A stretch of DNA of 64,000 nucleotides from NCBI GenBank assembly GCA_934229625.1, contig CAKQDU010000001.1, positions 83,078 through 147,077 on the forward strand, written 5' to 3'. The notes under the pieces are model-generated. The model was given only the letters and a program-made list of their open reading frames with translations, had not been told where the DNA came from and ran no database searches. Source of the stretch: an uncultured Alphaproteobacteria bacterium. GTDB lineage: Bacteria; Pseudomonadota; Alphaproteobacteria; RF32; CAG-239. Shown here in pieces: positions 356-60,084 of the stretch (position 1 is the stretch's first letter; every line of letters begins with the position of its first letter). A program made the translations under genes and the position numbers.

Positions 356-781
356 TTGACTATGAATATTGTAATTTTTATTGTATCTGCACTGGCAACA
401 TTAGCCTTGTGTATAGTTATTGTCAAATGTTTCGGCATAAGTCTTTTTGTTAAGTCAAGAGCTGAAGATTATATAAGTAATGTTTATACTATGATTGAAA
501 ATGAGAAGAATGGTTATCTTTATAAAAAAAGTGACTGTCCGCAGGATATAAAAAGTCAATATAAACATCTTATTGGGCATTGTAAATTTGAATATCTTTA
601 CGAAGATGCAAAAAAACTCTTGCATATTGGCAGTAGTTATTCGTTAGACGAACTGAACAAAAAGTGTAACAAACTCGGCAAACAGTATATGCCATCGCCG
701 GACTATACAGACAGTAAAAATATAGAGCTGCTGGATGAGCTGTGGAAATTATTTCAAGCCAAATATATATTATGGTCTTAG
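356..781 (+). CDS. hypothetical membrane-anchored protein
   Basis: 141-aa ORF with an N-terminal hydrophobic helix, followed by a terminator hairpin at 827-868. No recognisable family. Confidence 0.4.
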   Translation: MTMNIVIFIVSALATLALCIVIVKCFGISLFVKSRAEDYISNVYTMIENEKNGYLYKKSDCPQDIKSQYKHLIGHCKFEYLYEDAKKLLHIGSSYSLDELNKKCNKLGKQYMPSPDYTDSKNIELLDELWKLFQAKYILWS

Positions 782-878
782 TAGTATACTGTTCATATAA
801 TGTTGTAATCATATAATGTTGTAAACAAAAAAACTGCGGAAGTGACTATGCTTCTGTGGTTTTTTTTATGTAAATAAC

Positions 879-930
879 TTGACAAAAAACAAAATATCGC
901 TAAACTAAACGCATAATTTTATTTTTATGT
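879..930 (+). promoter_or_regulatory. conserved promoter-leader cassette (TTGACA 879-884, N16, TAAACT 901-906, leader CGCATAATTTTATTTTTATGT)
   Basis: Near-identical cassette recurs at 23250, 25299 and 26600. It drives ORF 951-1298. Confidence 0.55.
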
Positions 931-950
931 ATTCTTAATTTTTTTACAAG

Positions 951-1298
951 ATGTATAATTGTTATTTTAGATTGTTGGTCACAATTTTATTTTGTGTTTC
1001 AATTGTTTTATTGCCATTCAGTTCGAAAAGTGACATGCTCACAATGTTCTTTATCTTTTTGTTATTAGCATTTATGAGAATGCTGATGTCTTTTTATCTT
1101 CTTTTGAAGTGTAAATTGGAAGAAGAAAAGATATGGCAAAAAGCTTATAGTCCAGCTGAAATTGAAGCTGAATTGAATAGTAAAAAAGGACTTGGTTTGA
1201 TTTTATGCTGTGGCGTTCTGGTGCTGATTTTGGCTTTGATAGTTAATTGGAATGAAATTTTCAGAAATTTTTATGATTATGTGAGGTCTTTTTTTTAA
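951..1298 (+). CDS. hypothetical small membrane protein (2-3 TM)
   Basis: 115-aa ORF downstream of the conserved promoter-leader cassette. Hydrophobic segments flank a charged central loop. Confidence 0.45.
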   Translation: MYNCYFRLLVTILFCVSIVLLPFSSKSDMLTMFFIFLLLAFMRMLMSFYLLLKCKLEEEKIWQKAYSPAEIEAELNSKKGLGLILCCGVLVLILALIVNWNEIFRNFYDYVRSFF

Positions 1299-1387
1299 TT
1301 GAAACTCAAATCATTTAATTTGAAATTTATTGTCTATAAAGAACATTGGCGTTTTTATGTCGCCAATGTTTTTTTTGATTACTGTTT

Positions 1388-1657
1388 TTGCGGTTGTTTC
1401 AGTTAGTGAGCTGGAAAATTTTTGCCGCATTTTTGATTGTAATGTTTTGGGTTTTAATCAATGCCTTTTTACAGTTAGGTCTTAGCTATGTGTGGTATAA
1501 CAAACGCATAGAGCAAATGGCTGCCGGAAGTACAGTAAAATGCCGCAATGAATCCGACTTGGAAGATGAACTAGGTTCATCCGCCGCTTTGTTGAGCTAT
1601 ACAGTTACAACGCTTATAGGCAGGGCAGTGCTTGTATACATTTTCTTTTGTATGTAG
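1388..1657 (+). CDS. hypothetical small membrane protein
   Basis: 89-aa ORF, hydrophobic, followed by a hairpin terminator at 1664-1702. Weak evidence. Confidence 0.25.
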   Translation: MRLFQLVSWKIFAAFLIVMFWVLINAFLQLGLSYVWYNKRIEQMAAGSTVKCRNESDLEDELGSSAALLSYTVTTLIGRAVLVYIFFCM

Positions 1658-1663
1658 ACTGAT

Positions 1664-1702
1664 AAAAAAACTGTAAAATCATTAAGACTTCACAGTTTTT
1701 TG
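1664..1702 (+). terminator. intrinsic terminator of the recurring ACTGTnAAnTC...GACTTCACAG plus T-run family
   Basis: Imperfect hairpin ctgtaaaatc / gacttcacag followed by TTTTTT. Relatives at 25255, 26555 and 27162. Confidence 0.5.
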
Positions 1703-1728
1703 TGTAACAAAGCTTTTTTTTGATTAAG

Positions 1729-2196
1729 TTAATCTATATTACCAAGCAGGCGGTTTTTAACCATATCACCAACTTTTATATTGTTAGCTTTAACCTGACC
1801 AGCGTTTAGTTCCAGCACAGCGCGTGGGCGTTTCGGAGGATAAATTCCGGTTGTAGAAAACGGTTCGGCGTTTTCGTAGATATAGAAAATTTCTCCGTTT
1901 TCATCCAAAAACAACATATCCAGAGAAATAATTGTATCTTTCATCCACATGGCAACTTGCATATCCTGCGGAACAATTGTCACATCTAAAATCATTCCTG
2001 CGTTTTCGGACATAGAGCTGCGTCCCATTAAACCATGATACAAAGTCTCTTTTGTGTCAGCCACCTCAACATCATATTCATATTGTTTTTCGCCGGATTG
2101 AATAATCAATTTTTCTGTGGTGTTGTCCTTTTTTTCTGAGCAGGCAGAAAACAAAACTAAAGCCGAAAAAGCCATAACTTTTAATAACTTAAACAT
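1729..2196 (-). CDS. DUF192 (COG1430) periplasmic protein with lipoprotein-like signal peptide
   Basis: 155 aa. LFSACSEKK lipobox-like N-terminus. DMLFLDENGEI, PKRPRAVLELNAG and GDMV segments are typical of DUF192. Confidence 0.55.
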   Translation of the reverse strand: MFKLLKVMAFSALVLFSACSEKKDNTTEKLIIQSGEKQYEYDVEVADTKETLYHGLMGRSSMSENAGMILDVTIVPQDMQVAMWMKDTIISLDMLFLDENGEIFYIYENAEPFSTTGIYPPKRPRAVLELNAGQVKANNIKVGDMVKNRLLGNID

Positions 2197-2347
2197 AATC
2201 GCTCCTTAGTCAGTATTAAACATTACTATACAGTATAAAGAAATTTTTTGCTAAATTCAATGATAAAATTTGTTATAAAATAAATTTTTAAGCTTGCCAG
2301 AAAAGCTGATTTTTATTAAAATGCCCTAAATTAACAGAGGTGGAGAT

Positions 2348-2848
2348 ATGAATATGAAAACTCTTGGAACGCTGTTTTTATCAATTTTGGTGTTATCCGG
2401 TTGCGCAGATTTGCTTAACGGACGTTTTTGCGCTTATTCTCAGACAAAAATCAGTCCGATAGTGCATACCAGAAAAATGCCGAAAATCAACCGGCTTGCC
2501 GCTGTCATTTATTTTGCCGATGGCAGTTCGAAATTAACATCTGACGAAAAGAAAATTATAGCGGAAATTGCGCAAAAGGCTAAAAAACTGAATGCTGATT
2601 TAAAAGTTATAGGTCATGCATCATCTCATACCAGACCAACTACATTGGTTGAGCATACCATGATAAATTTAGGAATTTCAGGCCGCCGCGCCGAAGCTGT
2701 GGTAAGAAGTCTGGCGCAATCCGGTGTACCTCTGCATAAAATGCGTTATGAGGCATTGTCCGACAGCAGACCGGCTGTGCCGGAAATAAACGCTAAAGCT
2801 GCGGCAATGAATCGTCGTGTCGAAATTTTTTACATTTATCAGGAATAA
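2348..2848 (+). CDS. OmpA-family (Pal-like) lipoprotein
   Basis: Signal peptide with LSGC lipobox. C-terminal OmpA-like domain (GHASSHTRPTT...LGISGRRAEAVV...NRRVEIF). RBS GAGGTGGAG. Confidence 0.7.
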   Translation: MNMKTLGTLFLSILVLSGCADLLNGRFCAYSQTKISPIVHTRKMPKINRLAAVIYFADGSSKLTSDEKKIIAEIAQKAKKLNADLKVIGHASSHTRPTTLVEHTMINLGISGRRAEAVVRSLAQSGVPLHKMRYEALSDSRPAVPEINAKAAAMNRRVEIFYIYQE

Positions 2849-2857
2849 AAATTTTAA

Positions 2858-4618
2858 ATGGATAATCAAAAAATATCTTTAGGAGGCAATATTTGGAAAT
2901 TAGCGGCGGCTGATGACGGTTTGGTCGAAAGAATGTCGTTGTCATATAATCTGCCTGCTGTTTTGGCTCGTTTGCTTTGTGTGCGTAAAATATCATTTGA
3001 TGAAGTGAATGATTTCATCAACCCTAAACTACAAAATCTGATGCCGGACCCCTATGTTCTGAAAGATATGCAAAAGGCAGTCGAGCGCGTGGCTCTCGCT
3101 GTTGAAAATAATGAAAAAATTGCGATTATCGGCGATTATGATGTTGACGGCGCCACTTCTACTTCTGAGTTGGTTCGCTTTTTTAGAGCCGTCGGAATAA
3201 ATCCTCAAGTTCATATTCCGAGCCGCGAAGAAGGATATGGTCCGAGCGATTTGGCTTTCGGCGAGTTTGAACGGGAAGGCGCGAAACTCGTTATCACAAT
3301 AGATTGCGGAACAACGGCGTTTGATGTATTGAATCGGGCGGCGCAGAAAGGCTTTGAAATTATAGTTATAGACCATCATGAAGCAGAGGCAAAATTACCA
3401 GATGTTTATGCGGTCATAAATCCAAAACGTTTGGATGAAGATAATCAATATCCATATTTGTCATATATGTCAGCTGTCGGTGTCGGTTTTATGTTTTTGG
3501 TGGCCTTAAACAGAAAATTGCGCGATAGCGGATTTTATAAAAATTCTCCGTCTCCTGAACTGAAAAATCTGTTGGATTTGGTGGCGTTGGGAACCGTGTG
3601 CGATGTTGTGCCTCTGTTGGGATTAAATCGAGCCTATGTTCGACAGGGCTTAAAAATTATGGCTCAGCAAAATAATTTGGGGTTAAAAAGCCTTCTCAAA
3701 TCTGTTCAGACAGATAGCATGCCGACAGCATATCACTTAGGTTTTGTCTTGGGACCGCGTATAAACGCATGTGGCAGAGTAGGCGATGCGTCTTTGGGTA
3801 GCCGTTTGCTTTGCACCGAAAATGAGGCAGAGGCGCAAATGCTGGCCGAAAAATTCAATACGCTTAACGCCGAGCGAAAAGATATTGAAAACTATGTGCT
3901 ATTGAAGGCTATAGAACAAATCGAAGGACAGGTGCAGGAATATCCCATAGCTTTTGCCTATGGCGATGATTGGCATCAGGGGGTGATTGGCATAGTCGCC
4001 GGAAAGCTTAAAGAACGCTATAATGTGCCGTCATTTGTGATGTCAGTTGAACCAGATGAAGTTAAAGGTTCTGCGCGTTCTATAGAGGGAATTGATTTAG
4101 GAGCCTTGATTATTGCCGCCAAAGAAAAAGGTGTGATAACCGGCGGCGGCGGTCATATTATGGCGGCAGGTTTTTCTTTGACAAAAGAACAAATACCGGC
4201 ATTTAAAAAATTTGTTGGCGAATATGTTGAAGAACATTTGGGAAAAGAAAAAATTGCTCCGGTCTTAAATGTTGATTTAGCAATCGCTTTAAGCGGTGTC
4301 ACAGAGAACTTTGCCGACAGTTTGTCAATGCTTGAGCCTTATGGGGCAGGCAATCCCGAACCTCTGATAATGATAAAAAATGTAAACATAAATCGGCCTA
4401 AACCCGTAGGCAGCGGACATATAAGCTGCTTTTTAGGCTCTCCGTACGGCGGAAGTTTGAAGGCCATAGCCTTTAGAGTTGCGGATAATGACATAGGTAA
4501 TGCGATGCTGAATAACAATGCCGAGATGTTTGATGTGGTCGGACAAATAAAAACTGATATATGGCAGGGACGAAAAAAAATTCAGATGATTATCAATGAT
4601 ATTAGAAGAGTGGAATAA
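2858..4618 (+). CDS. recJ: single-stranded-DNA-specific exonuclease RecJ
   Basis: 586 aa. DHH motif IAIIGDYDVDGATSTS, DHHA1 GGGGHIMAAGF, and the RecJ C-terminal OB region. Confidence 0.9.
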   Translation: MDNQKISLGGNIWKLAAADDGLVERMSLSYNLPAVLARLLCVRKISFDEVNDFINPKLQNLMPDPYVLKDMQKAVERVALAVENNEKIAIIGDYDVDGATSTSELVRFFRAVGINPQVHIPSREEGYGPSDLAFGEFEREGAKLVITIDCGTTAFDVLNRAAQKGFEIIVIDHHEAEAKLPDVYAVINPKRLDEDNQYPYLSYMSAVGVGFMFLVALNRKLRDSGFYKNSPSPELKNLLDLVALGTVCDVVPLLGLNRAYVRQGLKIMAQQNNLGLKSLLKSVQTDSMPTAYHLGFVLGPRINACGRVGDASLGSRLLCTENEAEAQMLAEKFNTLNAERKDIENYVLLKAIEQIEGQVQEYPIAFAYGDDWHQGVIGIVAGKLKERYNVPSFVMSVEPDEVKGSARSIEGIDLGALIIAAKEKGVITGGGGHIMAAGFSLTKEQIPAFKKFVGEYVEEHLGKEKIAPVLNVDLAIALSGVTENFADSLSMLEPYGAGNPEPLIMIKNVNINRPKPVGSGHISCFLGSPYGGSLKAIAFRVADNDIGNAMLNNNAEMFDVVGQIKTDIWQGRKKIQMIINDIRRVE

Positions 4619-5283
4619 TGAAAGAAAAAAAAATAGAAGAAGCATCAAAAAAAGTCGGCAGTAAAATTAAAAGTTATTTTTTTACCGGCATTGTCGTAAC
4701 AGCTCCGGTTGCCATTACTGTTTATATGTCTTATCATCTGCTGATATGGATAAACAATGTCACAAGCCGCTTGGTTCCCCAGCAATGGTCAATCGGCGAT
4801 TTTGTGCCGTACGCGGTTCCGGGTGCGGGTTTAATTTTACTGATTTTTTCTATGATTGTTATCGGTATGCTTACAACCGGTTATGTCGGTAAGTTTTTTG
4901 TGCGTCTATGGGAAGCTTTGGTGCAGAAAATGCCTATAGTATCCAGTATTTATTCACTTATGAAACAAATTTTTGAAACATTTTTATCTCAAAAAACACG
5001 CTCGTTCAGTAAAGTTGTTTTGGTAGAATATCCGCGCAGAGGGCTATGGACAATTGCCTTTGTCAGTAAAGATGAAACCGGCGGAGAAGTCGATGAAAAG
5101 ATAAAAAGTAAAACACTCAGCATTTTTGTACCGACAACACCGAACCCTACTTCCGGATTTTTGATTTTTGTCCCTGAAAATGATGTGATTAAGTTGGATA
5201 TGAGTGTTGAAGACGGCATAAAATATGTGATATCTTGCGGTATTGTCACACCAACAGAACTAAAGAATAAGGTGAAAAAATAA
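4618..5283 (+). CDS. DUF502-family membrane protein
   Basis: 221 aa. Two TM helices then MPIVSSIYSLMKQIFET...VVLVEYPRRGLWTIAFV, typical of DUF502. TAATG overlap with recJ. Confidence 0.6.
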   Translation: MKEKKIEEASKKVGSKIKSYFFTGIVVTAPVAITVYMSYHLLIWINNVTSRLVPQQWSIGDFVPYAVPGAGLILLIFSMIVIGMLTTGYVGKFFVRLWEALVQKMPIVSSIYSLMKQIFETFLSQKTRSFSKVVLVEYPRRGLWTIAFVSKDETGGEVDEKIKSKTLSIFVPTTPNPTSGFLIFVPENDVIKLDMSVEDGIKYVISCGIVTPTELKNKVKK

Positions 5284-5825
5284 TGAAAAAAATATTACTG
5301 TCAGCGTTGCTGTTTTTGAGCGTAAGACCGGCAGAAGCCGGAATGTTGACCGATTGGAAAGATTTTTTGGTCGAGGATATCAACACAATCAGATGTATTC
5401 ATAACTATGATATTTATCTGCCTTTTTATGCTTGGCATAACCGTTTGACTTATGATAAAAGCCATATAGATAAATATAATGAAAACGCATGGGGTTTTGG
5501 TTTGGGAATTTCTCGTACAAACAATGAGCAAACCTGGTCCGGACTATATGCTATGGGTTTTAAGGATTCTAACTCGTATTTGGAAACATACTTTGGTTAT
5601 GCTCGCCAATGGAACTGGACCGCGGGCGATGAAAATCAATGGCGAGCCGGCATCGGCTACACATTGGGACTGACACAGCGTCACGAATATGCCTATATTC
5701 CTGTGCCTTTACCTCTGCCATTGTTTGGTGTCGGCTATCGCAATATTAATGTGCAGGCGGCTTATGTGCCTGGGATTAAAAATGACGGCAACGTATTATT
5801 CGTTTTCTCGCGTTTTAGTTTTTAG
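5283..5825 (+). CDS. pagP: lipid A palmitoyltransferase PagP-like outer-membrane beta-barrel
   Basis: Signal peptide. Strong collinear similarity to PagP as recalled from memory (YDKxxxDKYNExxWGFGLGISR...GLYAMGFKDS...YIPVPLPLPLFGVGY...YVPGIKNDGNVLFVFSRFSF). Confidence 0.75.
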   Translation: MKKILLSALLFLSVRPAEAGMLTDWKDFLVEDINTIRCIHNYDIYLPFYAWHNRLTYDKSHIDKYNENAWGFGLGISRTNNEQTWSGLYAMGFKDSNSYLETYFGYARQWNWTAGDENQWRAGIGYTLGLTQRHEYAYIPVPLPLPLFGVGYRNINVQAAYVPGIKNDGNVLFVFSRFSF

Positions 5826-9760: not shown

Positions 9761-10396
9761 TCAAAATTCTAATGATATATTACAATACGCGTTGGAGCTT
9801 TCACAAATTTTACAAGCCTCGTGAATTTCTTCCAATGAGGCTTGGGCAACGCATTTTATTTTCTCGTTGCAATAACTATCGCCATAAAACCATATACTTC
9901 TTCCGGTACCCCAAGCTGATGTTCTAACCGCAAAAACGACAGAGTGTAAAGGTTGTCCGAGATTTTGAAAAATAGAAACACATAGTTTGCTTGAAAAAGC
10001 CGGTGAAAAAAAGGTATCTTTTTTTGAAACTCCTCCGATGTAAAAATTTATTACTAATCTGTTATTGCGAGAAAATATATCAATCAAATTATTTTGACCA
10101 TCTTTTAAACTTTTCCAACCTTCATCATTGATAATCCAAGTTTGCGGTACTAAATTTGCAGCTTGTACATAATCATAAACAGGAACCATAGTATTATCGG
10201 AACTGAGATATTTAAGGTCATTAAGGTGTTCAAGCAATCCATAAATTAAGTAACTGTATTCTTCAATGAGTTTATTGCTTTTATATTTTTCCATGGCTTT
10301 GGAGTAACCGGCAATCCCACCGACGCTTAGTACAGCGATTATAGCAAGTACGCCGAGCATTTCTATCATGGAACGGCCTATTTGATTATATTTCAT
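9761..10396 (-). CDS. type IVb-like prepilin paralog P1 (short leader MKYNQIG, then RSMIEMLGVLAII...)
   Basis: Class III signal peptide with Glu at +5 and hydrophobic alpha1 helix. Conserved EYSYLIYGLLEHL. C-terminal FYGDxxC...CxxC...C motif. RBS AAGGAAG. Confidence 0.7.
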   Translation of the reverse strand: MKYNQIGRSMIEMLGVLAIIAVLSVGGIAGYSKAMEKYKSNKLIEEYSYLIYGLLEHLNDLKYLSSDNTMVPVYDYVQAANLVPQTWIINDEGWKSLKDGQNNLIDIFSRNNRLVINFYIGGVSKKDTFFSPAFSSKLCVSIFQNLGQPLHSVVFAVRTSAWGTGRSIWFYGDSYCNEKIKCVAQASLEEIHEACKICESSNAYCNISLEF

Positions 10397-10742
10397 AATA
10401 ACTTCCTTTCACATTGAAATTACAACAAAAAAGCCGCCGATAAGGCAGCTGGAAGTTCGTAACTACTTACTGTAAAATAGTGTAGCATATTAGCTAAAAG
10501 ATAACATATTTTGCTACCTTCCAGCCGTTAAAGCTAGAAAATTTAACGTCCTAAAGACGTACAGTAATGAGGCTACGACACCCCAGACAGACTATTGCCT
10601 ATCCAAAAGTCATTTTAACGAAATATTACATAAAAGTAAAGATGTTTTTCTTATTACAGCACATTGTTTTAGTAGTTGACTTATGGCGTAAGGCTGGTAT
10701 AGAATAAATGCTGTAATTAAACTAATTTAAGAGGAAAGAAAG

Positions 10743-13502: not shown

Positions 13503-13680
13503 GTGTGTAAAAAAAACGACCGTTTAAAATGGACAGTTTTTAGGCTGTTTTTTATAGTCTAGCAAAGGTTGCCGGAATTTGCAATAACTTTTTATATTTG
13601 CGATGTTTTTTGTGGTTTTGTAAGAATTATCAGCGTCTTATTCTGAGTGTGTAAAAATAACGGTCGTTTTTTTTACACAA
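13503..13680 (+). repeat. 178-bp conserved upstream element bounded by 22-bp inverted repeats (gtgtgtaaaaaaaacgaccgtt / aacggtcgttttttttacacaa); second copy reverse-complemented at 59746-59923
   Basis: Direct comparison of the two loci gives about 99% identity. The right end also forms a perfect hairpin just upstream of the RBS. Confidence 0.8.
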
Positions 13681-13695
13681 TTGAGGAGGAATAAG

Positions 13696-14424
13696 ATGTT
13701 TGATGGTATAGAATTTTTCAAAGGAAAGAGCAGAGGTGAGGGTTCTGGAGTGCTTTGCGTTGCTCGCAATGACGTTTGCTCTGCCGGTCGGTCAATGATA
13801 GAAATGCTCGGCGTATTGGCAATTGTCGGCGTGTTAAGCGTTGGCGGCATCGCCGGCTACTCCAAAGCGATGGAAAAGTTTAAGCTTAGTAAGGCTCTGG
13901 ATGAATACAGCTATCTTATTTATGGGTTGCTGGAACACTTAGATGAAATTAAATATTCCACTAAATCAGGAGATGGAAATGCTACTCCTGTTGTGGAATT
14001 AGCTAACAATTTGAATTTGGTTCCTCCGACATGGACAATGATAGCAAACAATCTTGATGTTCGTCATAAAAATTTATTTGAAGACCCATATAACAATCTT
14101 TTATCTATTTACTCAAAAGACGGAAATTTGCGTTTTGATTTTATTTTAGGCGGTTCGCAATTTCCGGACGAAGGCTCTTGGATAACTGAAAATTTTTCAA
14201 CCAAATTCTGTATGGAATTGGTAAACAATGTTGTCAAACCATTGCATTCTTCTTTGGAATTTTTATTTTTTTACAGGTCAAAAGGAAGCTCATCCACTTT
14301 TTATGGTGATAAAAAGTGTTCTTCCGGCCGCAAATGTTTGAGTGATATCAGTATAAAAGAAGTGTATGATAATTGCAAACGTTGCTCAAAAAAAGAAGTT
14401 TGTTCCGTAACTATAGACTTTTAA
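13696..14424 (+). CDS. type IVb-like prepilin paralog P2 with 31-aa leader
   Basis: Strong SD GAGGAGGA before the ATG at 13696. Leader ends ...CSAG then RSMIEMLGVLAIVGVLSVGG. Conserved EYSYLIYGLLEHL and the C-terminal 5-Cys motif ending TIDF. Confidence 0.7.
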   Translation: MFDGIEFFKGKSRGEGSGVLCVARNDVCSAGRSMIEMLGVLAIVGVLSVGGIAGYSKAMEKFKLSKALDEYSYLIYGLLEHLDEIKYSTKSGDGNATPVVELANNLNLVPPTWTMIANNLDVRHKNLFEDPYNNLLSIYSKDGNLRFDFILGGSQFPDEGSWITENFSTKFCMELVNNVVKPLHSSLEFLFFYRSKGSSSTFYGDKKCSSGRKCLSDISIKEVYDNCKRCSKKEVCSVTIDF

Positions 14425-36117: not shown

Positions 36118-37083
36118 ATGGTTAAATTAAATGAAAACACAGCATACAAAAGAGGACAGGAACTTTTAGATGCCGGTCAATACGAAGAAGCTATACAAAA
36201 ATTTGCAGAAGTGATAGCTGAAAATCCAAGAGCTTGGAAAGCAATGAACAGCCAGGGATTTGCTTATCAAAAAATGAGTAAATATACAGATGCGGTTGAG
36301 TGCTTTGATAAAGCATTGGCTGTTAATCCTAAATCTGTCGAAGTCTTGAATAATAAAGGCGTGACTTTGAGTATGCGTGGACTTTATAAAGAAGCAATCG
36401 CTTGTTTTGATGAAGCTTTTGCCAATGATTGCACCTCTTTGGAAGCTTTAAACGGTAAGGCTATTGCCTTGCAGCACATGTTTTCATACAAAGAAGCTTT
36501 GGATGTTTTGGAAGAAGCTATGAAAATTGACAGCAAACATCCTCAAACATTACTAAGTATCGCAGTAACTTTACAAAAATTGAAACAATATGACCGTTCA
36601 ATTTCTTTTTTCAAAAAAGTTTTGTCAGGCGATAAATACAATACAAAAGCTTGGAATGGTATCGGTGTTACATATCAGCTGATGGGGGATAATGAATCCG
36701 CTTTGAAATGTTTTACAAAAATTCTGAATATTAACAGCCAGGAATTGCAGGCATGGATAAGCATCGGCTATGTATATCAAAAAATGTTTAAATTTAAAGA
36801 TGCTTTGAAATGCTATAAAAAAGCTCAAGCCATTGTCGGCGGACGTTATACTCACAAACTTTATGACGGTTTGGCTTCTTGCTTAACCAAACTTTCAGAA
36901 TTTGACCAGGCTATTGAGGTTTATAAGCTTATTTATCAAAGTGAAGAAGGTAAAAGAAAATGGGACGCTCAGCGCTCTATAAAATTTGTAAACAAATTAA
37001 AGCGTAAACAAGCTGTCGGTCAGTTGCCGGATATCATGCCTAAAACAGACATAGAAGATGCCGAAACCTCTGTCGCCGAATAA
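36118..37083 (+). CDS. TPR-repeat protein
   Basis: At least seven 34-aa TPR units (AxxxxGxAYxxxxxYxxAxxxFxxAL pattern). RBS AGAGG. Start chosen at 36118. Confidence 0.7.
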   Translation: MVKLNENTAYKRGQELLDAGQYEEAIQKFAEVIAENPRAWKAMNSQGFAYQKMSKYTDAVECFDKALAVNPKSVEVLNNKGVTLSMRGLYKEAIACFDEAFANDCTSLEALNGKAIALQHMFSYKEALDVLEEAMKIDSKHPQTLLSIAVTLQKLKQYDRSISFFKKVLSGDKYNTKAWNGIGVTYQLMGDNESALKCFTKILNINSQELQAWISIGYVYQKMFKFKDALKCYKKAQAIVGGRYTHKLYDGLASCLTKLSEFDQAIEVYKLIYQSEEGKRKWDAQRSIKFVNKLKRKQAVGQLPDIMPKTDIEDAETSVAE

Positions 37084-37267
37084 AAATTTGGTCAAAATAT
37101 TTCAAGAAATAAAAACGGTTGTGTTAAAACAGCCGTTTTTTATATTGAAAATTGTAGATTAAAATCGTTTGTTTTCTGTTTTTAGGTTACATTTTATCGT
37201 TGCTTTAATTTTTTGCTTGATTATTAAGCATTCTATACTCTATACTAGCAATGTACTGAGAAGTGCA

Positions 37268-37448
37268 GGGCGTCAGAAACCCTTTATACATACAGTCGTT
37301 GAGCATAATACGACTTAAAATTTGTTATGCCGATTTTCTGTTCGCTGGACGGATGTCGGCTAAATAAGGTTTCGGCCAAATAAGCCGAGCCGTTTGTATG
37401 TATACGGTTTCTGAACATCCGCCCGCTTTGCAGCGGGTTTTATTTTTT
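37268..37448 (+). ncRNA. candidate terminator/antiterminator leader RNA upstream of pilin P3
   Basis: Imperfect 28/35-nt inverted repeat (37268-37295 versus 37390-37424). Its 3' arm overlaps the hairpin cccgctttgcagcggg plus U-run (37420-37448), which ends 25 nt before the RBS. Confidence 0.4.
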
Positions 37449-37471
37449 GTGTTTTTAGGAGGTTTGGAAAT

Positions 37472-38119
37472 ATGAATAAAAATGTTAAAAACAGGCAGTG
37501 CAGCGGTCGCTCAATGATAGAAATGCTGGGGGTACTATCTATCATCGGCGTGCTGAGTGTCGGCGGTATTGCCGGTTATTCCAAAGCTATGCTGAATTAT
37601 AAATTAAATAAATCTGTCGAAGCACATCGCGATGTTATATTTGGTCTAGTTCATTATAAAGATAGGCTAAAACCGGCAGAAGGTCAGAATTTAATCAATG
37701 AAGAAGTGGCATCTTTAGGACTTAAACCTAATAATTGGCGCAAAGATGGTGTTTATCTGATTGATGATATGAATAACACGATATTTATTGGTATTTATGG
37801 CGATGATAAACATATAGGATATGAAATCAGAATGCCTGCCAGAACGATTTCTCATAATGCAGATGGAAAAGTAGTGCAAAGCTATCCTTATAATTTTTGC
37901 GTGACAGCTATTAAACAACTGATTATTCCGTTGTCGGAAATGATTGAGGAATTTTCTTTTTATAGAACTAAAAGCGGTTGGGATTCTTTTTATGGCAGTA
38001 AATTTTGTGGTAAAGATTGCAAATGCATAAGTCAAATAAATGTTTCTCAGATGTTCGCCGAATGCCAGACTTGCGGTAAATCTGACGGTGAAGGTTGTTC
38101 AATTATCTTAAAATTTTAA
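37472..38119 (+). CDS. type IVb-like prepilin paralog P3 (12-aa leader)
   Basis: MNKNVKNRQCSG then RSMIEMLGVLSIIGVLSVGGIAGYSKAM. C-terminal FYGSKFCGKDCKC...CQTCGKSDGEGCSIILKF. RBS AGGAGG. Confidence 0.65.
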   Translation: MNKNVKNRQCSGRSMIEMLGVLSIIGVLSVGGIAGYSKAMLNYKLNKSVEAHRDVIFGLVHYKDRLKPAEGQNLINEEVASLGLKPNNWRKDGVYLIDDMNNTIFIGIYGDDKHIGYEIRMPARTISHNADGKVVQSYPYNFCVTAIKQLIIPLSEMIEEFSFYRTKSGWDSFYGSKFCGKDCKCISQINVSQMFAECQTCGKSDGEGCSIILKF

Positions 38120-54340: not shown

Positions 54341-55063
54341 TTATTTAAATTCAAAACTTACGTCGCAGTCGGTATTTTTCTTGTCACAGGAAGCGCAAAC
54401 TTCCTGAAAATCTTTTAATGTAGCCGTAGGTAAACATTTTTCTCCGTCTTGACAATACTTTGCTCCATAAAAATATATGTTATGCGACCCCTGCCACGAC
54501 CTTGCCAAATAAATTTCAGAGGACAAAGGCATAGCTATATTCTTAAACAACTCCAAACAAAAATCTTCTGCAAATCCTTCTGTAGTGGTTACATTATCAG
54601 CACTTTTAGTAAAACCGCCGATTTTTATGCTTACTGAAACAGCGCCTTTTCTAGTATATGGATAAACAATATTACCGAAAGTGTCATAAAAGGTATTGGT
54701 TGATTTTGTATAACTATCTGGTAACAACCCCAACGCATAAACGGTGTCTGCCAATGGTATTTGCCTAACCTGTTCATCTGATTTTAAGCTATCCAAATGC
54801 TCCAGAAGTCCGGCAAAAAACATAGAGTATTCTCCGATTGTCTTGTTCATTTTCCACATTCTCATTGCTTTGCTATAGCCTGCAATACCGGCAACGGACA
54901 GAACACCGACAATCGCCAGCACGCCGAGCATTTCTATCATACTCCGCCCAGCTGAAACCGCGTATAGCTGCGCTTCTAAAGCAGTTTTACGCTGTCTCAA
55001 AAAATTTATGTATTCCCCATATACACTAGGATTTTTTGTATTTTCTTTTAATTTATCAGACAT
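54341..55063 (-). CDS. type IVb-like prepilin paralog P4 (39-aa leader)
   Basis: AGGAG SD before the Met at 55063. ...AVSAG then RSMIEMLGVLAIVGVLSVAGIAGYSKAM. C-terminal FYGAKYCQDGEKC...CASCDKKNTDCDVSFEFK. Confidence 0.65.
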   Translation of the reverse strand: MSDKLKENTKNPSVYGEYINFLRQRKTALEAQLYAVSAGRSMIEMLGVLAIVGVLSVAGIAGYSKAMRMWKMNKTIGEYSMFFAGLLEHLDSLKSDEQVRQIPLADTVYALGLLPDSYTKSTNTFYDTFGNIVYPYTRKGAVSVSIKIGGFTKSADNVTTTEGFAEDFCLELFKNIAMPLSSEIYLARSWQGSHNIYFYGAKYCQDGEKCLPTATLKDFQEVCASCDKKNTDCDVSFEFK

Positions 55064-55407
55064 ATATTGAACTCCTAAAAAATTACAGAAAAACCGCTTA
55101 AAATAAGCGGTCGGAGAGTTCAACAATCATATCTGCTTAAATGATTCTTTTAGCCTTTAAAGCCATATTGTGTCAGAGATATATTATACAGCTTTTGAAC
55201 ATACGCTAAAAGCTCCCCGACCATATTGCTATGTATCGGGGATATATTTAGCTATCGGCAATAATCAAACCGCCGATAATTTAACGATGTTATATCCTAA
55301 CACCGAAGCAGATAAGAGCCGTTGAAAGCTCCGCGCTAACCGCGCTTGTTTTAATATATAAAGAAATAAAATAAAAAGCAAACAAATTCTTATGGGATAA
55401 AATTTTA

Positions 55408-59025: not shown

Positions 59026-59730
59026 TCACAACGGAAAACGGATAGTTATACAGCATACTCCTGAAGCATCGCAATGTTCACAGGCCGATTTTATTTGAGC
59101 CAAAGTAGCATTGCTTAAACACATACGCCCGTTTGAGCAATAAGCATCGCCATAAAATGTTATATCGCCTTTAGTTGAATTAAAAGTGTTTATTGAATAA
59201 ACAGCGGAATGCAGTGGCGTCATAATATTGTTAAACATCTCAACGCAAAGCTTCGATGAAAAGTTTGCGGATATCTTGCTGTCTGCGGTTTCTTGCCAGC
59301 CGCCTAAATAAAAATCCAGAAGCAAAACATTGCCGCCGCTATAAGACTGCACAATATTGCCGCTGTTATCCCACATTGCCTTATTATCTTCGGCTGTCCA
59401 GCTGGACGGAACAATATTTGTGGCGCGGGCAAAGTCTGTGAAATTAAATTTTCCCATACCGACCGGAACACTTTTTAAATCATCTATATGCTCCAGCAGA
59501 CCATATATAAGATAGCTATATTCGCTGATAGTTTTATTAAGTTTGAACTTTTCCATCGCTTTGGAGTAGCCGGCAATGCCTCCGACCGAAAGAACTCCGA
59601 CAATAGCAAGCACGCCCAGCATTTCTATCATTGACCGACCGGCTGAACAAATGTCATTGCGAGCAACGCGAAGCAATCCAGAACCCTCGCCCCTGCTCTG
59701 TTCTCTTAAAAATTCTATACTCTTAAACAT
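59026..59730 (-). CDS. type IVb-like prepilin paralog P5 (31-aa leader)
   Basis: GAGGAGGA SD before the Met at 59730. Leader and first ~85 residues nearly identical to P2. C-terminal FYGDAYCSNGRMC...CEHCDASGVCCITIRFPL. Confidence 0.7.
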   Translation of the reverse strand: MFKSIEFLREQSRGEGSGLLRVARNDICSAGRSMIEMLGVLAIVGVLSVGGIAGYSKAMEKFKLNKTISEYSYLIYGLLEHIDDLKSVPVGMGKFNFTDFARATNIVPSSWTAEDNKAMWDNSGNIVQSYSGGNVLLLDFYLGGWQETADSKISANFSSKLCVEMFNNIMTPLHSAVYSINTFNSTKGDITFYGDAYCSNGRMCLSNATLAQIKSACEHCDASGVCCITIRFPL

Positions 59731-59745
59731 CTTGTTCCTCCTCAA

Positions 59746-59923
59746 TTGTGTAAAAAAAACGACCGTTATTTTTACACACTCAGAATAAGACGCTGATAAT
59801 TCTTACAAAACCACAAAAAACATCGCAAATATAAAAAGTTATTGCAAATTCCGGCAACCTTTGCTAGACTACAAAAAACAGCCTAAAAACTGTCCATTTT
59901 AAACGGTCGTTTTTTTTACACAC
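59746..59923 (-). repeat. second copy of the 178-bp inverted-repeat-bounded upstream element (reverse complement of 13503-13680)
   Basis: Base-by-base comparison. One substitution noted. Confidence 0.8.
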
Positions 59924-60084
59924 TTTTCATTCAAATCTCCGCCAAAATCAAGAATTAAAAGACCAATATTTTGACACTATATATTTTATAGGTTGAAAAT
60001 ATTGATAAAACTCTTGCATTAAGCAATTTTTAGTCTATGCTGAGAATAATTTATAAAAAATTATATTAAAGGATTGCTATAATA

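What the first reader, a model, noticed from the sequence alone, without database searches (positions are those of the whole stretch)
37268..37471. Terminator/antiterminator-type leader RNA directly upstream of pilin P3
An imperfect long inverted repeat (gggcgtcagaaaccctttatacatacag at 37268-37295 versus ccgtttgtatgtatacggtttctgaacatccgccc at 37390-37424) can close a ~95-nt structured core. The 3' arm overlaps the left arm of the intrinsic-terminator-like hairpin cccgctttgcagcggg plus U-run (37420-37448), which ends only ~25 nt before the AGGAGG RBS. The two structures are mutually exclusive. That is the hallmark of a riboswitch or attenuator expression platform. c-di-GMP riboswitches are known to control type IV pilin genes in other bacteria, but the consensus was not convincingly matched by eye.
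Basis: partly seen in the sequence, partly recalled or inferred. Interest (0 to 1): 0.55.

Follow-up and report, generated by a model that had tools for sequence, protein, structure and literature searches.

The report
New multi-copy attenuator leader RNA family
The stretch in front of this pilin-like gene is one copy of a previously uncatalogued, widespread leader RNA of gut Alphaproteobacteria; it can fold in two exclusive ways, one stopping transcription before the gene and one letting it through, and it sits in front of many cell-surface protein genes.

Summary
Window 37262-37452 (+) is a structured 5' leader (fold z = -5.5) with its own promoter-like site and an intrinsic terminator 23 nt before the pilin-like ORF.

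It is one member of a large family. More than 118 exact-pattern hits occur in species-representative genomes, almost all gut or rumen Alphaproteobacteria MAGs, with at least 9 copies per assembly. No Rfam 15 family reaches threshold and I found no paper describing it.

Covariation supports a four-way junction (P1-P4, plus a P2-loop pseudoknot) followed by the terminator. It also supports a second, exclusive fold. In that fold GGACGGAUG (37347-55) pairs with CAUCCGCCC (37416-24), which is the 3' base of P1 plus the terminator's left arm. This antiterminator covaries through about ten sequence variants and several diverged leader types. Two of those types lie upstream of other pilin paralogues in this window.

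The same CAUCC segment is complementary to the Shine-Dalgarno region, so one switch would gate both termination and translation.

Its specific antiterminator pairing is not the conserved one, and the c-di-GMP link is unsupported. The effector is unknown. I rate it a new variant of a known kind.

The parts
37217..37246 (+). Promoter-like site: -35 TTGATT (37217-22), 18-nt spacer, -10 TATACT (37241-46). The inferred TSS is about 37253.
   Evidence: Consensus scan. Across 125 family members the best -35/-10 match ends 19-23 nt upstream of model position 1 in 67 cases, peaking at 22 nt with n=32 (15 nt in the window copy). The family consensus is TTTACA-17-TAnnnT. The TSS is inferred, not measured.
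37262..37452 (+). The whole leader element (type 1), as matched by covariance model R1.
   Evidence: cmsearch gives 223.5 bits, E about 1e-54. The reverse strand scores only 23 bits. Fold z-score is -5.5.
37267..37283 (+). P0: alternative 5' hairpin A-GGG[CGUCAGAAA]CCC-U. It excludes the lower part of P1.
   Evidence: On A4 it is 96.5% paired, with A-U to G-C changes in 4 sequences and CGGA/UCCG in L107. The same hairpin occurs in type 2 and type 3.
37268..37293 (+). P1 5' strand: base GGGCGU, lower stem CAGAAACC, internal loop CUU, and the hypervariable distal stem UAUACAUAC.
   Evidence: It pairs with 37396-37420. Helices 1-4 are 75-97% paired (90-97% for all but the isolated one-pair helix 2). 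All 7 pairs of helices 3-4 (distal stem) and the single-pair helix 2 show double changes. The compensatory changes are visible.
37294..37315 (+). P2 hairpin (AGUCGU...ACGACU) with loop GAGCAUAAUA.
   Evidence: Helix 5: 97% paired, 6 of 6 pairs with double changes.
37303..37307 (+). PK1 5' strand: P2-loop GCAUA, pairing with UAUGC at 37326-37330.
   Evidence: Own-complement test: GCAUA/UAUGC in 67 of 74, GCACA/UGUGC in 8 of 10, GCAAA/UUUGC in 3 of 3, GCAUU/AAUGC in 1 of 1. An analogous pairing is seen in type 2 (read by eye).
37326..37330 (+). PK1 3' strand UAUGC. It overlaps the first two nucleotides of P3.
37329..37360 (+). P3 hairpin, the '1:2' helix. Strand 1 is GCCGAUUUUCUGUUC and strand 2 is GGACGGAUGUCGGC.
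   Evidence: Helices 7 and 8 are 99% and 92% paired. Type-2 equivalents CCUUCUGG/CUGGAAGG are 95.9% paired.
37347..37355 (+). X: the antiterminator strand GGACGGAUG, which resembles a Shine-Dalgarno sequence.
   Evidence: It pairs with 37416-24 (duplex -13.9 kcal/mol). X and Y covary across variants.
37368..37391 (+). P4 hairpin (GGUU.CGGC...GCCGAGCC).
   Evidence: Helices 9 and 10: 96% and 92% paired, all 8 pairs with double changes.
37389..37408 (+). H5: alternative hairpin GCCGU (37389-93) with ACGGU (37404-08). Its loop is the 3' strand of distal P1.
   Evidence: On A4 it is 94% paired, with G-C to A-U in 7 sequences. Type 2 has ACUAU/AUAGU and CCAU/GUGG.
37396..37420 (+). P1 3' strand (GUAUGUAUA, ACGG, GGUUUCUG, ACAUCC).
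37416..37424 (+). Y: CAUCCGCCC. It can pair with the 5' P1 base, with X (antiterminator), or through GCCC with the terminator 3' arm.
37414..37420 (+). Anti-SD part of Y, AACAUCC. It is complementary to GGAGGUU at 37458-64 in 6 of 7 positions here.
   Evidence: In the family, AACAUCC goes with an exact GGAUGUU in 36 copies and GGAGGUU in 19. Type-2 AACUUCC goes with GGAAGUU in 12 of 13, with no cross matches. Type 3 has UUGAAC/GUUCAA.
37421..37448 (+). Intrinsic terminator: GCCCGC-UUUGCA-GCGGGU, then the U-run 37439-48.
   Evidence: Scan. Helix 11 is 99% paired and 6 of 6 pairs show double changes. Hairpin energy is -11.6 kcal/mol.
37457..37474 (+). Shine-Dalgarno AGGAGG (37457-62) and the start codon (37472-74) of the pilin-like ORF 37472-38119.
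   Evidence: There is no room for a second promoter between the terminator and the RBS.
10418..10589 (-). Diverged paralogue (type 2 leader) upstream of pilin-like ORF 9761-10396. X is 10518-26, Y is 10447-55, the terminator is 10427-50 and the SD is 10400-06.
   Evidence: R1 gives 34.4 bits, E about 3e-7. Coordinates come and covariation.
55067..55340 (-). Further diverged paralogue (type 3 leader) upstream of the pilin-like ORF ending at 54341. P0 is 55316-32, X is 55213-22, Y is 55109-18, the terminator is 55089-55114 and the SD is 55067-76.
   Evidence: The same type occurs in L155. R1 gives only 16 bits at 55078-55161.

Best explanation
This is a cis-acting transcription-attenuation leader, riboswitch-like in design. 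It gates the pilin-like gene at two levels.

A sigma-70-type promoter (37217-46) starts a 5' UTR of about 220 nt. The default fold (fold A) is a four-way junction. The long helix P1 (37268-93 / 37396-420) encloses hairpins P2, P3 and P4, and a P2-loop pseudoknot braces it. In fold A, X (GGACGGAUG) is locked inside P3. The segment GCCCGC is then free to pair with GCGGGU, the terminator forms, and RNA polymerase stops at about 37446-49. This is the OFF state. In any read-through RNA, AACAUCC can also cover the Shine-Dalgarno region.

In the alternative fold (fold B), lower P1 is open, and the 5' hairpin P0 and the hairpin H5 form. X pairs with Y (CAUCCGCCC), which removes the left arm of the terminator and also frees the SD. 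This is the ON state.

Fold A is favoured thermodynamically and probably kinetically. Expression therefore needs an unknown effector that blocks closure of lower P1 or stabilises fold B. I consider a small ligand or an RNA-binding protein about equally likely.

Shown here: both folds, their mutual exclusivity, their covariation, the family and its gene contexts. Inferred: the TSS, actual termination, the direction of the switch, and the existence of an effector.
For: - The fold is far more stable than shuffles (z = -5.5).
- The terminator consensus is met.
- The family is large: more than 118 loci in species-representative genomes, and 110 plus 33 plus 22 CM hits.
- Fold A: 95% of cells are paired against 35-44% when the partners are slid. 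46 of 57 pairs carry double changes and 0 of 500 shuffles reach this. Type 2 behaves the same way.
- Fold B and the antiterminator. X/Y variants are all complementary: GGACGGAUG/CAUCCGCCC, GUGGGGAUG/CGUCCCCAC, GGCUGGAAG/CUUCCAGCU, GACCGGAAG/CUUCCGGUC, GACUGGAAG/CUUCCAGUC, GAUCGGAAG/CUUCCGGUC, GGCAGGAAG/CUUCCUGCC, GGCUGGAAG/CUUCCAGCC, GGUCGGGGAG/CUCUCCGACC and CGGGGGAG/CUCCUCCG. The type-2 AT helix is 99.2% paired with 3 double-change pairs.
- The terminator's 3' arm covaries with Y.
- H5 and P0 covary.
- The anti-SD/SD match is type-specific.
- An ORF starts 40-62 nt after Y, on the same strand, in nearly all loci.
- The promoter-like site sits at a fixed distance.
- The structure is strand-specific. 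G-U pairs are frequent and the reverse strand scores 23 bits against 223.
- Energies: AT -13.9, terminator -11.6, distal P3 -5.8 kcal/mol. The full-length MFE is the terminator fold at -77.4.
Against: - There are no expression data, so the TSS, the termination and its conditionality are all inferred.
- The nested fold B is about 21 kcal/mol less stable than fold A for this copy. Switching needs strong help or kinetic control, and no effector was identified.
- In this copy the SD match to the anti-SD has a central G.A mismatch (6 of 7).
- X and Y were fixed by my search pattern in most type-1 copies. Their covariation therefore rests on the roughly 25 divergent copies.
- Those X/Y pairs were partly identified by eye.
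- The covariation counts are not corrected for phylogeny.
- Alignment A4 was fitted to the fold A model.
Confidence: 0.72

Rival explanations
1. It is an independent small-RNA gene of about 195 nt with its own promoter and terminator, acting in trans. One possible action is through its anti-SD-like CAUCC segment on the GGAUGUU ribosome sites of the same regulon. Under this reading its position before the pilin gene matters only because read-through feeds that gene.
For: - It has its own promoter-like site and a strong terminator.
- It is present in many copies per genome.
- It shows a weak resemblance to the trans-acting sRNA-Xcc1 (30.7 bits).
- The anti-SD motif is complementary to the family's SD regions.
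Against: - It is always on the same strand as an ORF and at a fixed 40-62 nt before it.
- Only 8 nt separate the U-run from the RBS, so the downstream gene has no promoter of its own.
- The X:Y antiterminator and the type-specific Y:SD complementarity are cis features that covary.
- The Xcc1 score is below gathering, and types 2 and 3 give no hit at all.

The two roles are not exclusive. Terminated leaders could also act in trans.
Confidence: 0.1
2. It is a constitutive structural 5' UTR, for example an RNase III or stability element with a leaky terminator that merely sets the expression level. There is no sensing.
For: - Long near-perfect P1 duplexes are typical RNase III substrates (my own knowledge).
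- Fold A is strongly favoured energetically.
- No ligand or protein was identified.
Against: Four features have no role in a static element: the second exclusive fold, the covarying antiterminator, and the P0 and H5 hairpins. The architecture is also kept through several sequence-diverged types.
Confidence: 0.08
3. It is a c-di-GMP (or other known class) riboswitch controlling a type IV pilin gene.
For: - c-di-GMP riboswitches control pilin genes elsewhere (my own knowledge; reviewed in PMC11477304).
- The regulon of surface proteins resembles a second-messenger regulon.
Against: - No Rfam family reaches gathering in the window or in 18 related loci.
- No riboswitch family appears even at E<=10 in 37080-37520.
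- No GGDEF domain was found in 1.45 Mb of related loci (a weak negative from a biased sample).
Confidence: 0.03
4. It is a DNA-level repeat, such as a miniature transposable element, an invertible promoter (inverton) or a recombination site. On this reading the inverted repeat matters as DNA.
For: It is multi-copy, it has an inverted repeat flanking a core, and it is often found at gene 5' ends.
Against: - The arms differ in sequence and length between copies and are kept only by compensation.
- Many G-U pairs make the structure strand-specific, and the reverse strand scores about 10-fold lower.
- The asymmetric internal loop is conserved.
- The candidate promoter lies outside the repeat.
- There are no plasmid hits, and the single 'phage' hit is an unverified faecal contig carrying an autotransporter gene.
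Confidence: 0.02
5. It is a classical ribosome-mediated attenuator, in which translation of a leader peptide starting at AUG 37327 uncovers X.
For: A start-like codon (ATG 88, GTG 11, TTG 3) precedes strand 1 of P3. Short ORFs of 10-18 codons run across X.
Against: - The reading frame across X is not conserved (frames 0/1/2 = 39/29/45).
- There is no SD upstream of that AUG.
- The AUG/GUG/UUG variation is explained by covariation with the P2 loop (PK1).
- Type 2 has no such codon.
Confidence: 0.02

Closest known systems
Terminator/antiterminator expression platforms of riboswitches, for example the c-di-GMP-II riboswitch upstream of pilA1 in Clostridioides difficile (my own knowledge; PMC11477304)
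   Same: Both are a structured 5' UTR with a multi-helix junction closed by P1 and a tertiary pseudoknot. Both have an intrinsic terminator just before the RBS and a mutually exclusive antiterminator. Both occur in multiple copies per genome in front of surface and pilus genes.
   Different: There is no sequence or structure match to any Rfam riboswitch. The ligand is unknown and may not exist. The antiterminator strand lies inside P3 rather than being the 3' strand of P1. Closure of P1 accompanies termination.
Protein-dependent attenuators with dual control, such as the Bacillus subtilis trp leader with TRAP or the pyr leaders with PyrR (my own knowledge)
   Same: Both use chained exclusive helices (anti-antiterminator, antiterminator, terminator). 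In both, read-through transcripts are additionally subject to SD sequestration, so one decision acts on termination and on translation.
   Different: There are no GAG/UAG repeats or PyrR-box-like motifs. No candidate binding protein is known in these uncultured bacteria. Here the SD-sequestering strand is the same segment as the 5' flank of the terminator, and X mimics the SD.
Classical 1:2 / 2:3 / 3:4 leader-peptide attenuators (E. coli trp; my own knowledge)
   Same: The topology of three overlapping alternative helices ending in an intrinsic terminator is the same.
   Different: There is no conserved leader peptide. About 60 nt (P4 plus the P1 3' strand) lie between segments 2 and 3. The whole module is embedded in a long-range helix.
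sRNA-Xcc1 (Rfam RF02221), an integron- and island-borne sRNA found upstream of symE (bioRxiv preprint 10.1101/2025.06.18.660453; PMC12189769)
   Same: The best, though weak, Rfam hit covers 37347-37432. It is a three-way junction closed by a G+C-rich stem and followed by U's, which coincides with fold B (X:Y closing two hairpins).
   Different: The score is 30.7 bits against a gathering score of 53. Types 2 and 3 give no hit. The hosts and genetic context differ. I treat the match as a resemblance of shape, not homology.

Membership tests
Intrinsic (Rho-independent) terminator | A G+C-rich hairpin immediately followed by a U-run. | tested here: met
   37421-37438 has 7 pairs, 5 of them G-C, a loop of 4 and tail UUUAUUUUUU. 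Energy is -11.6 kcal/mol. The stem is kept by double changes in 6 of 6 pairs across 110 sequences.
Transcription attenuator (terminator/antiterminator leader) | An alternative helix that shares nucleotides with the terminator and is itself conserved. | tested here: met
   X 37347-55 pairs with Y 37416-24 and overlaps the terminator's left arm by GCCC. X, Y and the terminator's 3' arm covary together.
Transcription attenuator (terminator/antiterminator leader) | The element lies within the transcript, downstream of the TSS and upstream of the regulated ORF. | tested here: inconclusive
   A promoter-like site sits at a conserved distance and an ORF follows at a fixed distance on the same strand. 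No TSS data exist.
Transcription attenuator (terminator/antiterminator leader) | Condition-dependent premature termination. | not testable with these tools
   This needs Term-seq, northern blots or in vitro transcription.
Riboswitch (any class) | Direct, specific binding of a small ligand by the RNA. | not testable with these tools
   Only indirect evidence exists: a four-way junction, a pseudoknot and conserved unpaired nucleotides.
c-di-GMP-I / c-di-GMP-II riboswitch (RF01051 / RF01786) | A match to the family covariance model. | tested here: not met
   There is no hit at gathering and none at E<=10 in 37080-37520.
c-di-GMP-I / c-di-GMP-II riboswitch (RF01051 / RF01786) | The organism makes c-di-GMP, i.e. 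has GGDEF-domain cyclases. | tested here: inconclusive
   A motif scan of 1.45 Mb of related loci found no GGDEF domain. The sample covers only small parts of many genomes.
sRNA-Xcc1 (RF02221) | A score at or above Rfam's gathering threshold of 53 bits. | tested here: not met
   The score is 30.7 bits. The type 2 and type 3 paralogues give no hit.
Leader-peptide attenuator | A conserved short ORF with a ribosome site overlapping segment 1. | tested here: not met
   The frame is not conserved (39/29/45) and there is no SD. The start-codon-like variation is explained by PK1 covariation.
MITE / inverton (DNA-level inverted repeat element) | Terminal inverted repeats conserved in sequence among copies, with a strand-symmetric structure. 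| tested here: not met
   The arms are hypervariable and kept by compensation, with frequent G-U pairs. The reverse strand scores 23 bits against 223.

The most novel reading that the evidence does not exclude
The leaders are a new class, or several related classes, of sensor RNA. These could be riboswitches for an unrecognised signal, or targets of an unknown RNA-binding regulator. They would switch a large part of the cell-surface proteome of gut Alphaproteobacteria on and off: dozens of variant pilin-like proteins, lipoproteins, outer-membrane proteins and autotransporters. The diverged types (1, 2, 3 and more) coexisting in one genome would respond to different signals and so choose which pilin variants are displayed.
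Probability: 0.3. Interest if true: 0.85.

Novelty: new variant of a known kind. Interest (0 to 1): 0.65.

Why it matters
These uncultured gut Alphaproteobacteria are common in humans and livestock, and almost nothing is known about their gene regulation.

A single portable promoter-leader-RBS module sits in front of at least 9 genes per genome, mostly pilin-like and other envelope proteins. That points to a global switch for surface display, and hence for host interaction, adhesion and phage or immune exposure.

For RNA biology it offers three things:
- an orphan structured-RNA family with hundreds of members;
- unusually clear covariation for two alternative folds;
- a compact design in which one segment serves as P1 base, terminator arm and anti-SD, while an internal SD mimic acts as antiterminator.

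The design is directly testable with in vitro transcription and ligand screens.

Tried and rejected
- **Rfam.** I ran gathering searches on the window and on 18 related loci, and E-value mode on all three leader regions. Only a sub-threshold sRNA-Xcc1 hit came up.
- **Second copy by blastn.** None was found in the window. The diverged copies appeared only with the covariance model and by eye.
- **Leader peptide.** Rejected.
- **Trans partner in the window.** No other site resembles the P1-lower 3' strand or X.
- **Plasmid or phage mobility.** There were no plasmid hits. The one 'phage' record looks bacterial.
- **Literature.** I searched sRNA-Xcc1, RNA motif with Alphaproteobacteria and pilin, the paper on candidate structured RNAs of human microbiomes (including 200 of its 408 supplementary files), and the literal sequence GGACGGATGTCGGC. 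Nothing describes this motif.
- **GGDEF scan.** Negative.
- **PK1 on alignment A4.** The variant loops fall in insert columns, so I counted pairing directly on the sequences instead.
GGGCG:CGCCC is energetically possible, but neither register is discriminated within type 1 and it is absent in type 2.
- **CsrA idea.** X and the SD resemble the CsrA SELEX consensus. This is only my recollection and was not tested.

Full report
**1. Observation**

The repeat finder reports the inverted repeat 37273-86 / 37401-14, and also a second one, GGACGGATGT 37347-56 / ACATCCGCCC 37415-24.

Folding 37240-37475 gives -83.5 kcal/mol. Two hundred dinucleotide shuffles average -58.3 +/- 4.6, so z = -5.54 and none folds as well. 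In this fold a long helix encloses three hairpins and is followed by the hairpin 37421-38 with a U-run. The terminator scan finds that hairpin too, and the promoter scan finds TTGATT-18-TATACT at 37217-46.

The U-run ends 8 nt before AGGAGG and 23 nt before the ATG. An inverted repeat followed by a T-run that looks like an intrinsic terminator follows the upstream TPR gene (37111-46). The pilin-like gene would then depend on its own promoter.

**2. It is one copy of a large family**

The pilin-like protein has thousands of relatives in gut metagenomes. Contigs encoding close relatives carry the same intergenic region:
- 99.5% identity in L006;
- 81% in L001 and L002;
- 80% in L008, where the protein itself is only 52% identical.

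These three lineages already show fully compensated changes in the long helix.

I then scanned one genome per species for the pattern GGACGGATGTCGGC-N40-70-GAACATCC. Nearly all are uncultured Alphaproteobacteria from human, ruminant, rabbit, mouse and chicken guts. A few hits have no leader and are chance matches.

Several assemblies have many copies: CAVGVF01 has 9, UQAB01 has 6 and CAKQLF01 has 5, all within a truncated scan. In almost every locus an ORF starts 40-62 nt after the pattern on the same strand.

**3. Fold A**

A covariance model built from four sequences (R1) scores the window copy at 223.5 bits and its reverse strand at 23 bits. It finds 110 matches in 100 sources, 33 in 80 pilin loci that were fetched without regard to the RNA, and 22 more.

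On the 110-sequence alignment:
- 95.0% of cells are paired, against 35-44% when the 3' partners are slid;
- 46 of 57 pairs have double changes;
- no shuffle out of 500 reaches the observed values.

All the helices are supported:
- P1, in three parts: base, lower stem, and a distal stem that is hypervariable in sequence and length but always complementary;
- P2, P3 and P4;
- the terminator.

This alignment was fitted to the model. However, the raw sequences show the same compensation.

Many G-U pairs and the low reverse-strand score show that the structure belongs to the RNA of the + strand.

The P2 loop GCAUA (37303-07) is complementary to UAUGC (37326-30) and covaries with it: GCACA/UGUGC in 8 of 10, GCAAA/UUUGC in 3 of 3 and GCAUU/AAUGC in 1 of 1. 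This is a pseudoknot of the kind seen in compact aptamer folds.

**4. Fold B and the antiterminator**

Copies that escaped my exact pattern show that X (GGACGGAUG, the 3' strand of distal P3) and Y (CAUCCGCCC, the last five nucleotides of P1 plus GCCC of the terminator) change together.

| Copy | X | Y |
|---|---|---|
| L052:380 | GUGGGGAUG | CGUCCCCAC |
| type 2 variant | GGCUGGAAG | CUUCCAGCU |
| type 2 variant | GACCGGAAG | CUUCCGGUC |
| type 2 variant | GACUGGAAG | CUUCCAGUC |
| type 2 variant | GAUCGGAAG | CUUCCGGUC |
| type 2 variant | GGCAGGAAG | CUUCCUGCC |
| type 2 variant | GGCUGGAAG | CUUCCAGCC |

In every case the terminator's 3' arm follows suit. On a 14-sequence type-2 alignment the X:Y helix is 99.2% paired, with three double-change pairs. 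Fold B as a whole is 97.4% paired against 31-50% when slid. Fold A is also supported there, at 94.5% paired with 23 of 38 pairs showing double changes.

Two further helices exist only when P1 is open, and both covary:
- the 5' hairpin P0 (GGG...CCC);
- H5 (GCCGU/ACGGU, with variants GCCAU/AUGGU, ACUAU/AUAGU and CCAU/GUGG), whose loop is the 3' strand of distal P1.

The RNA therefore has two evolutionarily maintained, mutually exclusive folds. Its chain of helices is 1:2 (P3), 2:3 (X:Y) and 3:4 (terminator).

**5. Anti-SD**

The 5' part of Y is complementary to the ribosome-binding region, and the match is type-specific:
- type 1 AACAUCC has an exact GGAUGUU in 36 copies and GGAGGUU in 19 (the window copy is one of these, 6 of 7 pairs);
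- type 2 AACUUCC has GGAAGUU in 12 of 13;
- there are no cross matches.

Type 3 has UUGAAC/GUUCAA, and a further type has AGCUCC/GGAGCU. X is thus an SD mimic that competes with the real SD for Y. This also explains the frequent 'MF.M' N-termini, which come from GG-AUG-UU.

Common descent of the leader plus RBS module could produce part of this correlation. The repeated independent complementarity across types argues for function.

**6. Gene contexts**

I classified 97 downstream ORFs:
- 37 are pilin-like;
- 30 fall into two families with lipoprotein-like N-termini (judged by eye from their signal sequences);
- the rest include Cys-rich secreted proteins, glycosyltransferases, OMP-like and autotransporter-like proteins, two XRE-type regulators and singletons.

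The leader is therefore not pilin-specific.

The window has five pilin-like genes scattered among housekeeping genes:
- P3 carries type 1;
- 9761-10396 (-) carries type 2, at 10418-10589;
- the gene ending at 54341 (-) carries type 3, at about 55067-55340;
- the other two share a different 190-nt leader.

**7. How it most likely works**

Energies for this copy are:
- X:Y duplex: -13.9 kcal/mol;
- terminator: -11.6;
- distal P3: -5.8;
- P1 base: -2.1;
- full-length MFE, which is the terminator fold: -77.4;
- best nested fold with X:Y forced: -56.4.

MFE folds of growing transcripts close P1 as soon as its 3' strand is out. I therefore infer that the default state is OFF. Read-through would need an effector that prevents closure of lower P1 or stabilises fold B. 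This part is inference.

There is no conserved leader peptide. No trans partner lies in the window.

**8. Comparison with known families**

No Rfam 15 family reaches gathering in the window or in 18 related loci. The only weak hit, sRNA-Xcc1 at 30.7 bits against a gathering score of 53, coincides with the X...Y three-way junction. It is absent for types 2 and 3. That sRNA belongs to integron or island cassettes upstream of symE.

No c-di-GMP riboswitch match was found, and no GGDEF domain appears in 1.45 Mb of related DNA. Literature searches, including the literal sequence, found no description. I cannot exclude that the motif is listed in files that are not held.

**9. Verdict**

The feature is real. 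It is a new family, in fact a superfamily of diverged types, of terminator/antiterminator leaders with coupled SD control. The mechanism class is known. The family, its architecture and its surface-protein regulon are new. The effector is unknown.

Noticed in passing
window 10418-10589 (-): A diverged 'type 2' copy of the leader sits upstream of another pilin-like gene (9761-10396). It has the same logic with different sequences: X is GGCUGGAAG, Y is CUUCCAGCU and the SD is GGAAGUU.
   Followed up: yes
window ~55067-55340 (-): A 'type 3' leader sits upstream of the pilin-like gene ending at 54341. X is GGUCGGGGAG, Y is CUCUCCGACC and an extra hairpin is present. The ORF list starts this gene at TTG 55126, but the likely start is the ATG near 55059-61, downstream of the terminator.
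   Followed up: partly
window ~13510-13695 (+) and ~59750-59935 (-): Two further pilin-like genes (13681-14424 and 59026-59745) share a different leader of about 190 nt that is 99% identical between them. It is closed by a 21-bp long-range stem ending just before GAGGAGG (fold z = -3.9). Its relation to the family was not established.
   Followed up: partly
L003-L005 versus window ~37225-37665: Some strains carry a deletion of about 440 bp. It removes the -10 box, the whole leader and about the first 65 codons of pilin P3, leaving a truncated 150-aa ORF.
   Followed up: partly
L002 1261-5068: In one contig the 81%-identical pilin gene is followed by microvirus-like genes (Phage_F capsid, REP_ORF2-G2P replication protein).
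   Followed up: no
L011, L012, L016, L037, L039, L042, L048, L049, L072, L082, L097, L104, L112, L116: Species-representative records titled Eubacteriales, Bacteroidaceae or [Ruminococcus] gnavus carry this alphaproteobacterial leader and pilin-like genes. The bins or their labels are probably wrong.
   Followed up: no
L207 (MT836653.1) 572-3443: An 'UNVERIFIED Bacteriophage sp.' faecal contig carries the leader (117 bits) in front of an 890-aa autotransporter-like ORF. It is probably a bacterial fragment.
   Followed up: partly
window 37273-81 / 37406-14 and the family alignment A4: Lower P1 occurs in two discrete forms, CAGAAACC/GGUUUCUG (63 sequences) and CGAAAACC/GGUUUUCG (44), rather than as a spread of variants. 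The reason is unknown.
   Followed up: no
window 37349 / 37422: The type-1 antiterminator has an A.C mismatch in 100 of the 108 alignment rows that have a base on both sides. In the 8 variant rows this position is a Watson-Crick pair. This could hint at tuned weakness or pH dependence.
   Followed up: no
window 37472-38119 and paralogues: The pilin-like proteins have no Pfam match. Their class-III-like signal has Arg at +1 after the Gly and Glu at +5, and the C-terminal half has conserved cysteines. Five paralogues lie among housekeeping genes (RecJ, ParC, DnaK, DinB, UvrD, MoxR), not in a pilus operon.
   Followed up: partly
L167 (-) around 5100-5386: Yet another leader type lies upstream of a pilin homologue. 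X is CGGGGGAG, Y is CUCCUCCG, and the anti-SD AGCUCC faces the SD GGAGCU. This suggests the superfamily has more types than the three seen in the window.
   Followed up: no
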